Assembly (NCBI RefSeq): GCF_024502345.1
Contig: NZ_JALDNN010000001.1
DNA: 64,000 nucleotides
Strand: one strand, 5' to 3'
Source: Escherichia coli
Lineage (GTDB): Bacteria > Pseudomonadota > Gammaproteobacteria > Enterobacterales > Enterobacteriaceae
Shown here piece by piece: positions 22,679 to 52,220 of the stretch. Made by a program: the position numbers and the translations under genes. The number at the start of each line of letters is the position of its first letter. Positions within the stretch are counted from its first letter, which is position 1. The notes beneath the pieces are model-generated. The model did no database searches. It was not told the DNA's origin and saw only the letters and a list, made by a program, of their open reading frames with translations.

Positions 22679-22754
<76 letters not shown>

Positions 22755-22789
22755 TTGGGTGGTCTGTGCCTTACAGCACTTTCAAATTT

Positions 22790-22865
<76 letters not shown>

Positions 22866-22901
22866 TTGGGTGGTCTGTGCTTTGCAGCACTTTTCAAATT
22901 T

Positions 22902-22977
<76 letters not shown>

Positions 22978-37059: not shown

Positions 37060-37593
37060 ATGCGCCTGCTCCCTCTCGTTGCCGCAGCGACAGCTGCATT
37101 TCTGGTCGTTGCCTGCAGTTCTCCTACGCCGCCGCGTGGCGTGACCGTAGTGAATAATTTCGACGCTAAACGCTATCTCGGTACCTGGTATGAGATTGCC
37201 CGTTTTGATCACCGCTTTGAACGTGGACTGGAAAAAGTCACCGCAACATACAGCCTGCGTGATGACGGCGGCCTGAATGTCATTAATAAAGGCTATAACC
37301 CTGACAGAGGAATGTGGCAGCAGAGTGAAGGGAAAGCGTACTTTACCGGCGTACCAACTCGCGCTGCGCTGAAAGTGTCATTCTTTGGTCCTTTCTATGG
37401 CGGTTATAACGTCATTGCACTTGATCGGGAATACCGCCATGCGCTGGTTTGCGGCCCGGACCGCGACTACCTGTGGATACTCTCCCGCACGCCAACCATT
37501 TCTGACGAAGTGAAACAGGAGATGCTGGCAGTCGCGACCCGGGAAGGGTTTGATGTCAGTAAGTTTATTTGGGTACAGCAGCCCGGTAGTTAG
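37060..37593 (+). CDS. blc: Outer-membrane lipocalin Blc
   Basis: 177-aa ORF with lipobox (VVACSS). Confidence 0.9.
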
Positions 37594-37907
37594 TGAGTGC
37601 TGAGTTTCAGACCAATAATCCCCAATACGATTAACGCCAGACTCGCCAGGCGCATCGGGTTAGCGGACTCACCGAGCAGTACAATGCCGGTGATGGCCGC
37701 GCCGACTGCGCCAATACCCGTCCACACGGCATAAGCCGTCCCTACTGGTAACGATTTCATCGCCCAGGCAAGTAGCGCCATACTGACAATCATCGCCGTC
37801 ACAGTAATAACACTCGGCGTCAAACGACTAAAGCCGTGGGTATATTTCAGGCCAACGGCCCATACCACTTCCAGCAGACCAGCAATAACTAAGATAATCC
37901 AGGACAT
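37590..37907 (-). CDS. gdx: Guanidinium exporter Gdx (SugE, SMR family)
   Basis: ORF 37590..38057; canonical 105-aa product starts at [26 protein letters not shown]. Confidence 0.9.
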
Positions 37908-37929
37908 ATCAGGCTCCGGAGAATTGGGG

Positions 37930-37985
37930 CCGTCCCCGGTGAAAAGACGCGTTTGCAGGTCGTCCTGCAAAGCTGATGGTTGAAC
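37930..37985 (-). ncRNA. Guanidine-II (mini-ykkC) riboswitch in the gdx leader
   Basis: Minus strand carries two short GC stems with ACGR tetraloops: UUGCAGG-ACGA-CCUGCAA (37963-37980) and GGGG-ACGG-CCCC (37936-37947), just upstream of gdx. Confidence 0.7.
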
Positions 37986-38082
37986 GGATATTTTGCCAGG
38001 TGGCAGGGGAATTTCAACTATTACCTTTGTGACTATCGCAGAGAAAACAAACGGCACGACACAGCTGTCGTACCGTTATTGC

Positions 38083-38229
38083 TTATTGCTGCGCTTTCGT
38101 TGCTGCACCAGAAATCGCGTTACCGCCATCAGAAATGTCTTCACCAACGCCACGCGTGGTGTTGCAGGCAGTTAATACTGTTGAAAGCACCAGAACAGAA
38201 AAGATCGCTGCAATTGTCTTCTTCACCAT
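38083..38229 (-). CDS. ecnB: Entericidin B lipoprotein
   Basis: Manual minus-strand translation gives [48 protein letters not shown] (48 aa) then TAA. Confidence 0.85.
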
Positions 38230-52144: not shown

Positions 52145-52220
52145 GCCCGGATAGCTCAGTCGGTAGAGCAGGGGATTGAAAATCCCCGTGTCCTTGGTTC
52201 GATTCCGAGTCCGGGCACCA
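52145..52220 (+). tRNA. pheU: tRNA-Phe (GAA)
   Basis: GCCCGGATAGCTCAGTCGGTAGAGCAGGGGATTGAAAATCCCCGTGTCCTTGGTTCGATTCCGAGTCCGGGCACCA, 76 nt with GAA anticodon. Confidence 0.95.

What the first reader, a model, noticed from the sequence alone, without database searches (positions are those of the whole stretch)
37930..37985. Two ACGR-tetraloop hairpins upstream of gdx match a guanidine-II riboswitch
The gdx leader on the minus strand contains two short GC-rich stem-loops with ACGA and ACGG loops, about 15 nt apart. This is the architecture of the mini-ykkC (guanidine-II) riboswitch, known to control SMR-family guanidinium exporters. It is a good positive control that the window's non-coding RNA elements can be read from sequence.
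Basis: partly seen in the sequence, partly recalled or inferred. Interest (0 to 1): 0.3.

Follow-up and report, generated by a model that had tools for sequence, protein, structure and literature searches.

The report
Known E. coli gdx guanidine-II riboswitch
The two small hairpins upstream of gdx are the well-studied E. coli guanidine-II (mini-ykkC) riboswitch, which raises production of a guanidinium export pump when guanidine accumulates, so the finding is correct but ordinary.

Summary
On the minus strand, P1 (37971..37952, 8 bp, ACGA loop) and P2 (37937..37926, 4 G-C pairs, ACGG loop) are separated by 14 nt. They lie 8 nt upstream of the GGAG Shine-Dalgarno (SD) sequence of gdx/sugE. Rfam's Guanidine-II model scores 49.3 bits against a gathering score of 32. 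No pair of such hairpins appeared in 300 shuffles of the window. Of 80 gdx loci chosen by protein similarity alone, 52 carry the same element, with strong compensatory variation in P1.

The window is the E. coli chromosome (ampC-blc-gdx-ecnB-ecnA-efp). This exact RNA has been crystallised (P1, PDB 5NDI), studied by NMR and single-molecule FRET, and mapped in vivo. It is already known.

The unsettled part is the expression platform. My comparative tests favour an OFF state in which P2 unzips and its 3' strand pairs with the SD, over the linker "anti-SD" drawn in E. coli papers. This evidence is suggestive only, and one fair covariation test was not significant. A common natural linker allele, a P2-loop mutant and a P2-deletion strain offer ready-made tests.

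The parts
37990..38017 (-). Promoter-like site: -35 TTGAAA (38017..38012), 16-nt spacer with TG, -10 CAAAAT (37995..37990)
   Evidence: Consensus scan. It is a single hit and 0.8 are expected by chance, so it is weak on its own. It lies 7-8 nt upstream of the TSS inferred from published mapping. An A/T-rich -10-like hexamer sits at a similar distance before P1 in other Enterobacterales.
37972..37982 (-). 5' tail of the gdx mRNA (CAACCAUCAGC), with the transcription start at about 37982
   Evidence: Inferred by mapping. The Term-seq 3' end at NC_000913.3:4376876 is the U of the AUG, and it is described as 76 nt downstream of the sugE TSS (PMC7815308). AUCA(G) at 37977..37973 can pair with (C)UGAU at 37912..37908.
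37952..37971 (-). P1 hairpin: 8-bp stem UUUGCAGG/CCUGCAAA with loop ACGA (37963..37960)
   Evidence: The sequence is identical to the crystallised 'E. coli P1_8bp' RNA, PDB 5NDI (PMC5486947). Six of 8 pairs show compensatory changes in 20 Enterobacterales; 96.9% of cells are paired and 0/500 shuffles reach this.
37949..37973 (-). Extended P1: two further pairs, G37973-C37949 and C37972-G37950, across bulged C37951
   Evidence: Each pair is formed in 19 of 20 sequences with compensatory changes (GC 12 / AU 5 / GU 2; CG 16 / UA 2 / GU 1).
37938..37951 (-). Linker CGCGUCUUUUCACC (14 nt). G37948 is polymorphic (C in K-12).
   Evidence: 1,120 complete E. coli genomes match the window's 96-nt leader exactly and 3,070 match the K-12 leader. 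GUCUUU can pair with GGGGAC of P2. In K-12, CUCU can pair with the SD GGAG.
37926..37937 (-). P2 hairpin: GGGG/CCCC stem with loop ACGG (37933..37930)
   Evidence: It is invariant in Enterobacterales, so covariation is uninformative there. Pair positions 4-6 vary compatibly in the wider set. A lab-selected strain with a 20-nt deletion covering P2 shows a log2 fold change of 6.08 in gdx RNA (n = 1; PMC13064478).
37908..37925 (-). 3' tail AAUUCUCCGGAGCCUGAU, with the Shine-Dalgarno GGAG at 37917..37914
   Evidence: GGAGCC is predicted to pair with GGCCCC of P2 (5 pairs and one A.C mismatch).
37590..37907 (-). gdx (sugE) coding sequence, 105 aa: guanidinium exporter of the SMR family
   Evidence: NC_000913.3 annotates it as 'guanidinium exporter'. 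Codon 2 is UCC in 14 of 15 Enterobacterales with Ser-2.
37906..37906 (-). Dominant in-vivo RNA 3' end (Term-seq), Rho-associated
   Evidence: PMC7815308 supplementary files give 4376876 (+), Rho score 3.69, flagged 'riboswitch'. gdx starts at 4376875 in NC_000913.3.
38050..38077 (-). Terminator-like hairpin of the upstream gene ecnB. It separates ecnB from the gdx promoter.
   Evidence: 12-bp stem followed by UGUUUUCUCU. The ecnB ORF is 38229..38083.

Best explanation
[quoted passage not shown] It is a translational ON switch for a guanidinium/H+ antiporter.

Shown, here or in print: the leader of about 75 nt carries two hairpins capped by ACGA and ACGG. Each loop binds one guanidinium ion, and ligand binding promotes a loop-loop 'kissing' complex through the loops' C and G residues.

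Inferred for this leader: without ligand, the P1+P2 arrangement is not the most stable fold. P2 unzips. Its 5' strand pairs with the linker (GUCUUU:GGGGAC). Its loop and 3' strand pair with the ribosome-binding site (GGC.CC:GG.GCC). A short helix between the 5' tail and the 3' tail (AUCA:UGAU) closes the structure. The SD is therefore hidden.

Guanidinium stabilises the P1-P2 kissing complex, which holds P2 closed and releases the SD. Translation of gdx follows and the exporter lowers cellular guanidinium.

When the mRNA is not translated, Rho terminates or the RNA is processed. This leaves the 76-77-nt leader RNA seen in vivo and adds a transcript-level layer of control.
For: Identity of the element:
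- Rfam RF01068 scores 49.3 bits against a gathering score of 32, full length.
- 0 of 300 shuffles give a hairpin pair.
- P1 shows compensatory variation in 8 of 10 pairs including the extension.
- 52 of 80 protein-selected gdx loci carry the element.
- The leader is present in 5,421 of 5,426 complete E. coli genomes.
- P1 is identical to the RNA in PDB 5NDI.
- NMR on the K-12 aptamer gave a Kd of about 133 uM (PMC9300104).

Downstream gene: SugE equivalog and Gdx-Clo homologue.

ON-switch direction:
- A 20-nt deletion covering P2 goes with a log2 fold change of 6.08 in gdx RNA, and guanidinium improves a Gdx-dependent phenotype (PMC13064478).
- In my model the SD opening cost falls in the bound-state mimic in 11 of 12 choices of transcript ends, and in the deletion mutant in 12 of 12.

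OFF state through P2:
- The SD's main predicted partner is the P2 3' strand in E. coli (0.64, against 0.01 for the linker) and on average over 50 loci (0.38 against 0.12).
- In a permutation test only the P2 loop plus 3' strand is matched to its own SD region (z -5.2, 0/2000). Within Enterobacterales z is -2.5 (35/5000). The linker and 5' tail show no signal.
- The Ser-2 codon UCC is the second most conserved synonymous site of 72.
- The in-vivo 77-nt species folds to this structure at -24.8 kcal/mol, z -2.3.

Rho layer: Term-seq 3' end at the AUG, Rho score 3.7, and reporter fusions more than 2-fold higher in rhoR66S (PMC7815308).
Against: The identity of the element is not in doubt. The doubts concern the expression platform.

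- A fair test of loop position 4 (R) against the base after the SD was not significant (p = 0.10 in Enterobacterales, p = 0.14 over all loci).
- P2 and the GGGAC:GUCCU pairing are invariant in Enterobacterales, so they give no covariation evidence.
- The permutation test does not correct for relatedness among loci.
- Modelled energy differences are small (0.7-3 kcal/mol). In one truncated model, forcing P1+P2 did not free the SD, because a local hairpin UCCGG:CUGGA formed.
- In P. aeruginosa, deep mutagenesis placed the platform in a 5'-tail:3'-tail helix with P1 and P2 intact in both states (PMC10351892). E. coli has a similar AUCAG:CUGAU option.
- NMR and SAXS on the E. coli aptamer saw mainly intermolecular P1-P1 contacts rather than an intramolecular P1-P2 kiss (PMC9300104).
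- The ZX-1 RNA-seq had n = 1, and that strain carries other mutations.
Confidence: 0.97

Rival explanations
1. Same riboswitch, but the OFF state is the one drawn in the E. coli literature. P1 and P2 stay folded in both states, and a linker 'anti-SD' (CUCU in K-12) pairs with the SD GGAG. Ligand-driven kissing pulls the linker away.
For: This model is drawn in PMC9300104 and PMC9094411, following PMC5558903. With P1+P2 forced, the K-12 allele does form CUCU:GGAG in the model. A linker partner is predicted in about 8 of 50 loci, for example L017, L040, L052 and L081.
Against: The window's allele (G37948, exact leader match in 1,120 genomes) breaks the closing pair of that helix, yet it is common. 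The linker shows no locus-specific match to the SD region (z +0.9 over all loci, +0.2 in Enterobacterales). The ZX-1 deletion leaves the linker intact but de-represses gdx. In P. aeruginosa, no covariation was found for linker:SD pairing (PMC10351892).
Confidence: 0.2
2. Same riboswitch, but the platform is a P0b-like helix between the 5' tail (AUCAG, 37977..37973) and the 3' tail (CUGAU, 37912..37908), as established for P. aeruginosa. Kissing of P1 and P2 pulls the two tails apart.
For: PMC10351892 shows this architecture works in P. aeruginosa. AUCAG:CUGAU is a perfect 5-bp complement and appears in the predicted folds. The dominant in-vivo 3' end lies 2 nt after CUGAU, as expected if that helix protects the RNA end.
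Against: The 5' tail shows no specific complementarity across Enterobacterales (z +1.85). The helix is lost in Citrobacter werkmanii (ACCAG/CUCAU). Deleting P2 should bring the tails closer and keep repression, which is opposite to the ZX-1 phenotype. The helix adds only about 0.7 kcal/mol in the model.
Confidence: 0.2
3. The main regulated step is transcription. The leader acts chiefly by premature termination (Rho-dependent, or intrinsic at P1 plus the U-run), not by translation initiation.
For: Term-seq 3' end in the leader, Rho score 3.7, a Rho termination region inside gdx, and lacZ fusions more than 2-fold higher in rhoR66S (PMC7815308). P1 followed by CGCGUCUUUU was flagged as terminator-like.
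Against: The 3' end is at the AUG (37906), not after the P1 U-run (about 37942), and the U-run begins 6 nt after the stem. Rho action inside an ORF is the usual consequence of blocked translation, as PMC7815308 itself discusses. The class is described as exclusively translational (PMC10351892). This is best seen as a downstream layer and not a rival mechanism.
Confidence: 0.1
4. The two hairpins are a chance resemblance with no regulatory role.
For: Single ACGR hairpins are common by chance: 6 observed against 3.9 expected.
Against: 0 of 300 shuffles give a pair. The covariance-model E-value is 9.5e-07. P1 shows compensatory variation. The element is present at 52 of 80 gdx loci. There is direct structural and biophysical literature on this RNA.
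Confidence: 0.005

Closest known systems
Guanidine-II riboswitch (mini-ykkC, Rfam RF01068), E. coli sugE/gdx representative
   Same: It is the same element. Two ACGR-capped hairpins with a 14-nt linker lie just upstream of the gdx RBS. P1 is identical to the RNA of PDB 5NDI. The 47-nt Rfam hit has the same boundaries as the native part of the 47-49-nt constructs used for NMR and smFRET.
   Different: The window carries G instead of C at linker position 37948, relative to the K-12 sequence used in published work. That base lies in the stretch drawn as the anti-SD in those papers.
Pseudomonas aeruginosa guanidine-II riboswitch (deep mutational scan, PMC10351892)
   Same: Same aptamer class, the same kind of gene (SugE-like exporter), and a translational ON switch. 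E. coli also has a possible 5'-tail:3'-tail helix (AUCAG:CUGAU).
   Different: In P. aeruginosa the platform is the P0b helix, with P1 and P2 intact in both states. In E. coli and most gdx loci analysed here, the SD region matches the 3' half of P2 instead. Expression platforms are not conserved across the class.
Gloeobacter violaceus guanidine-II riboswitch (PMC5486947)
   Same: The authors proposed a stem-loop overlapping P2 and the RBS that is mutually exclusive with the folded aptamer. That is the same logic as the OFF state favoured here.
   Different: The sequence, stem lengths and spacing differ. The proposal was made for G. violaceus and has not been tested on E. coli.
Guanidine-I (ykkC), -III and -IV riboswitches
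   Same: Same ligand and overlapping gene sets (Gdx/SugE exporters, guanidine carboxylases).
   Different: They have unrelated folds. Classes I and IV act on transcription. None was detected in the window or within 700 nt of the 40 loci scanned with Rfam.

Membership tests
Guanidine-II riboswitch (RF01068) | Covariance-model score at or above the curated gathering score, over the full model | tested here: met
   49.3 bits against 32; model positions 1-48 of 48; E 9.5e-07 for the window and 1.4e-08 for the region.
Guanidine-II riboswitch (RF01068) | Two hairpins, each capped by an ACGR tetraloop closed by G-C pairs | tested here: met
   P1 is GG-ACGA-CC and P2 is GGGG-ACGG-CCCC. A pair like this never arose in 300 shuffles.
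Guanidine-II riboswitch (RF01068) | Linker of variable sequence, 7-40 nt (range given in PMC7544219) | tested here: met
   14 nt here. The range over 50 homologous loci is 8-42 nt.
Guanidine-II riboswitch (RF01068) | Stems supported by compensatory base changes in homologues | tested here: met
   In P1, 8 of 10 pairs (including the 2-bp extension) have changes on both sides, 96.5% of cells are paired, and 0/500 shuffles reach this. P2's core is invariant and so uninformative. Its outer pairs vary compatibly in the wider set.
Guanidine-II riboswitch (RF01068) | Located just upstream of the RBS of a guanidine-related gene (Gdx/SugE exporter or guanidine carboxylase) | tested here: met
   P2 ends 8 nt before the SD and 18 nt before the AUG of gdx. 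gdx matches the SugE equivalog NF008512 at 193.5 bits against 126 and is closest to Gdx-Clo among solved structures.
Guanidine-II riboswitch (RF01068) | Selective binding of guanidinium in each loop, with loop-loop dimerisation | not testable with these tools
   From the literature only: PDB 5NDI of the identical P1 with guanidine (PMC5486947), a Kd of about 133 uM for the K-12 aptamer (PMC9300104), and an intrastrand kissing state seen by smFRET (PMC9094411).
Guanidine-II riboswitch (RF01068) | Guanidine-dependent increase of downstream gene expression (ON switch) | not testable with these tools
   The support for E. coli is indirect: a P2 deletion with raised gdx RNA, and guanidinium enhancing a Gdx-dependent phenotype (PMC13064478). 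The primary validation paper (Sherlock et al. 2017) could not be read. Thermodynamic modelling agrees in direction.
Gdx subtype of SMR transporters | Sequence membership in the SugE/Gdx group and not the Qac/EmrE group | tested here: met
   The SugE equivalog passes its cut-off, and all Qac and EmrE models fall far below theirs. PDB Gdx-Clo scores E 1.5e-32 against about 2e-10 for EmrE.

The most novel reading that the evidence does not exclude
In E. coli, and in most gdx-associated guanidine-II riboswitches, the expression platform may be P2 itself and not the linker 'anti-SD' shown in E. coli papers. Without ligand, P2 unzips. Its 5' strand pairs with the linker, and its loop plus 3' strand pair with the SD (and possibly the AUG and codon 2). 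Ligand-driven kissing works by holding P2 shut. The two common E. coli linker alleles (G or C at 37948) would then tune the switch in opposite directions under the two models. The concept was proposed for G. violaceus in 2017, so only its generality and its application to E. coli would be new.
Probability: 0.45. Interest if true: 0.25.

Novelty: already known. Interest (0 to 1): 0.1.

Why it matters
As a positive control it works: a reader without tools correctly recognised a 47-nt riboswitch from raw sequence, and the standard covariance model confirms it.

Biologically the element is textbook. What remains open is how the aptamer is coupled to the ribosome-binding site in E. coli, because all structural work used aptamer-only constructs lacking the SD.

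The natural variants seen here could settle that cheaply. They are two common linker alleles, a P2-loop G-to-U strain and a 29-nt P2-deletion clinical isolate. The question also bears on Gdx-mediated tolerance to guanidinium, to some quaternary ammonium compounds and, as recently reported, to caesium.

Tried and rejected
- My strict hairpin scan (at least 3 bp around ACGR) missed two true elements, L008 and L036, which Rfam found. The hairpin scan therefore undercounts.
- My first bound-state model, with P1+P2 forced on RNAs ending at +12, did not free the E. coli SD, because a local hairpin UCCGG:CUGGA formed. With several transcript ends and the linker blocked, the direction was as expected but the effects were small. 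I treat the energetics as qualitative only.
- The test of whether the base after the SD tracks loop position 4 of P2 was not significant. I do not claim covariation for the P2:SD pairing.
- Linker:SD and 5'-tail:3'-tail complementarity gave no locus-specific signal. Both remain possible in E. coli itself.
- P1 plus the U-run as an intrinsic terminator was rejected, because the mapped 3' end is 36 nt further downstream.
- I could not read Sherlock et al. 2017 (PMC5340285) or Slipski et al. 2020 (PMC7648145), because neither is held.
- None of the five RefSeq records inspected annotates a riboswitch feature here, so annotation could not be used as evidence.

Full report
**1. What is in the sequence**

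Read on the minus strand, the stretch between ecnB and gdx contains the following:
- an ecnB terminator-like hairpin (38077..38050);
- a promoter-like site, TTGAAA-16-CAAAAT (38017..37990);
- P1, UUUGCAGG-ACGA-CCUGCAAA (37971..37952);
- a 14-nt linker, CGCGUCUUUUCACC (37951..37938);
- P2, GGGG-ACGG-CCCC (37937..37926);
- the tail AAUUCUCCGGAGCCUGAU, with the SD GGAG at 37917..37914;
- the gdx start codon at 37907.

The stated range 37930-37985 clips 4 nt of P2 and overshoots on the 5' side.

**2. More than chance**

Rfam's Guanidine-II model (RF01068) matches 37971..37925 over its full length, at 49.3 bits against a gathering score of 32. It is the only hit in a permissive scan of the region on both strands.

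Single ACGR-capped hairpins are not rare: 6 in the window against 3.9 expected. A pair of them 5-40 nt apart occurred in 0 of 300 dinucleotide-preserving shuffles.

**3. Where the window comes from**

The 751-nt region is present in 5,425 of 5,426 complete E. coli genomes, annotated ampC-blc-sugE-ecnB-ecnA-efp-epmB. The downstream protein passes the NCBIfam SugE equivalog (193.5 bits against 126). Among solved structures it is far closer to the guanidinium exporter Gdx-Clo (E 1.5e-32) than to EmrE (about 2e-10). NC_000913.3 names it 'guanidinium exporter'.

**4. Independent comparative support**

I fetched 80 gdx loci from one-genome-per-species collections using the protein only.
- A neutral hairpin scan found two ACGR hairpins upstream of 50 of them.
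- The other 28 have no Rfam riboswitch within 700 nt.

In an alignment of 20 enterobacterial leaders, 6 of the 8 P1 pairs carry compensatory changes. 96.9% of cells are paired, 0 of 500 shuffles reach this, and slid controls collapse to 36-57%.

P1 also extends by two pairs across a one-base bulge (37973-37972 with 37950-37949). Each of these pairs is formed in 19 of 20 sequences, with GC/AU/GU and CG/UA alternation.

P2's four G-C pairs are invariant in this clade and so say nothing either way. In the wider set, its outer pairs vary compatibly.

**5. What is already published on this exact RNA**

- The crystallised 'E. coli P1_8bp' RNA (PDB 5NDI) is letter for letter the window's P1 (PMC5486947).
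- The 47-49-nt E. coli aptamer was studied by NMR and SAXS, with a Kd of about 133 uM (PMC9300104), and by smFRET and simulation (PMC9094411).
- In vivo, Term-seq found a dominant 3' end at NC_000913.3:4376876, with Rho score 3.7 and Rho-dependent read-through in reporters and northern blots (PMC7815308).
- gdx starts at 4376875, so that 3' end is window 37906, the U of the AUG. The stated 76-nt distance puts the TSS at about 37982, which is 7-8 nt after the CAAAAT hexamer.
- A caesium-resistant lab strain with a 20-nt deletion covering P2 shows a log2 fold change of 6.08 in gdx RNA (n = 1; PMC13064478).

The element is therefore already known.

**6. How it works, and what is still inferred**

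Ligand binding and loop-loop kissing are established for the class. The coupling to the ribosome-binding site in E. coli is not, because all in-vitro constructs stop before the SD. Three OFF-state pairings are on the table:
- (a) a linker anti-SD, as drawn in the E. coli papers following the P. aeruginosa model (PMC5558903);
- (b) a 5'-tail:3'-tail helix, shown by deep mutagenesis to be the real platform in P. aeruginosa, where no covariation supported linker:SD pairing (PMC10351892);
- (c) a structure overlapping P2 and the RBS that excludes P2, proposed for G. violaceus (PMC5486947).

My tests gave these results:
- In partition-function predictions for 50 loci, the SD's main partner is the P2 3' strand (mean 0.38, E. 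coli 0.64). The linker scores lower (mean 0.12, E. coli 0.01).
- I swapped SD regions among loci. Only the P2 loop plus 3' strand is specifically matched to its own SD region (z -5.2, 0/2000). Within Enterobacterales z is -2.5 (35/5000). The linker and 5' tail show nothing. Relatedness among loci is not corrected for in this test.
- In Bradyrhizobium the match is striking: GACGACCC against GGGUCGUC.
- The modelled SD opening cost falls in a bound-state mimic in 11 of 12 transcript-end choices, and in the published 20-nt deletion in 12 of 12.
- That deletion leaves the linker and the 5' tail intact. Its de-repression therefore fits (c) better than (a) or (b).
- In the model the unzipped P2 5' half also pairs with G-UCC-U of the start region. 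Ser-2 is UCC in 14 of 15 Enterobacterales, the second most conserved synonymous site of 72. Constraints on initiation itself could explain this equally well.
- The in-vivo 77-nt species folds at -24.8 kcal/mol (z -2.3). The fold is a compact structure that combines AUCA:UGAU, extended P1, GUCUUU:GGGGAC and GGC.CC:GG.GCC. The P1+P2 state costs about 1.9-2.7 kcal/mol more.

Several results count against over-reading this:
- The fair covariation test, loop position 4 against the base after an SD located independently of P2, was not significant (p = 0.10 and 0.14).
- The candidate OFF helices are invariant in Enterobacterales.
- The energy differences are small.
- Other lineages clearly use other partners, such as the linker in L040, L052 and L081, and the 3' strand of P1 in Mesorhizobium.

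I therefore commit to (c) as the most likely main contributor in E. coli, at roughly 45%. I put (a) and (b) at about 20% each. They are not mutually exclusive.

**7. Natural variation**

- The window's leader is identical to that of 1,120 genomes, including O157:H7. The K-12 leader is shared by 3,070.
- They differ at 37948 (G against C). C completes the published CUCU:GGAG linker:SD helix. G breaks it but adds a closing G-C pair to the linker:P2 hairpin.
- Strain REF2 has ACUG in the P2 loop, changing the ligand-contacting G.
- The urine isolate strain 167 lacks the linker and P2 through a 29-nt deletion. This resembles the lab-selected ZX-1 deletion.

**8. Verdict**

The element is already known and of low interest as a finding. 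The residual value is a testable refinement of the expression platform, plus a set of natural variants that could decide it.

Noticed in passing
window 37948 (minus strand, linker position 4): G in the window against C in K-12 MG1655. It is the only difference in the 96-nt leader, and it falls in the stretch drawn as the anti-SD in E. coli papers. Exact matches: 1,120 genomes for the window allele and 3,070 for the K-12 allele.
   Followed up: partly
L084 (NZ_CP107230.1, E. coli REF2), aligned to window 37931 and 37921: A natural variant with the P2 loop ACGG changed to ACUG, at the conserved ligand-contacting G, plus AAUUCU changed to AAUUUU. It is predicted to disable P2 binding and kissing.
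   Followed up: no
L083 (NZ_CM132950.1, E. coli strain 167, urine isolate), aligned to window 37950..37922: A 29-nt deletion removes the linker and all of P2, leaving P1 directly next to CUCCGGAG. It resembles the 20-nt deletion that de-represses gdx in the lab strain ZX-1. Six of 5,421 genomes cover less than 80% of the leader.
   Followed up: partly
window 37973-37972 with 37950-37949, bulge at 37951: P1 extends by 2 bp across a one-base bulge, supported by compensatory changes in 20 Enterobacterales. This shortens the truly unpaired linker to 11 nt.
   Followed up: yes
window 37904..37902 (gdx codon 2): Ser-2 is UCC in 14 of 15 Enterobacterales although serine has six codons. It is the second most conserved synonymous site of 72 in the gene. 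This is compatible with pairing to GGGAC of P2 or with constraints on translation initiation.
   Followed up: partly
loci L026, L028, L031-L035, L038, L041-L043, L045, L053-L055, L057, L059-L063, L067, L073-L075, L077, L079, L080: 28 of 80 gdx homologues have no Rfam-recognised riboswitch of any guanidine class within 700 nt. They may be unregulated, internal to operons, or controlled by something not yet described.
   Followed up: no
L050, L051, L056, L064, L066, L069, L071, L076 (Mesorhizobium): The distance from P2 to the start codon is 44-66 nt instead of about 18, with an extra hairpin between P2 and the SD. The SD region looks complementary to the 3' strand of P1 plus the start of the linker (for example CGCUCC:GGAGCG), which suggests a different expression platform.
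   Followed up: no
plasmid collection; L007 (Providencia plasmid p8538-NDM-1): About 681 plasmids, mostly conjugative and from Escherichia, Salmonella and Klebsiella, carry a sugE-lipocalin module about 79% identical to the window's. L007 is one of these plasmids and keeps an intact two-hairpin riboswitch.
   Followed up: partly
RefSeq records NZ_CP015229.1, NZ_CM184145.1, NZ_CM132950.1, NZ_AP018488.1, NC_000913.3: None annotates a riboswitch or regulatory feature at this site. PGAP still names the product 'quaternary ammonium compound efflux SMR transporter SugE', while NC_000913.3 says 'guanidinium exporter'.
   Followed up: no
window 22682-22977 (-) and 52145-52217 (+): There are three identical tRNA genes 111-112 nt apart on the minus strand, and a single tRNA on the plus strand that corresponds to the gene annotated tRNA-Phe in an O157:H7 genome. 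In that genome a frameshifted integrase fragment lies next to tRNA-Phe.
   Followed up: no
L030 (Bradyrhizobium sacchari), start region: With the start codon placed as in its relatives, the reading frame has a stop at codon 3 (AUG GCC UGA), and the protein match begins at residue 5. This could be a frameshift, a pseudogene or an assembly error.
   Followed up: no
window 37590-37593: gdx (minus strand) and blc (plus strand) converge, and their 3' ends overlap by 4 nt.
   Followed up: no
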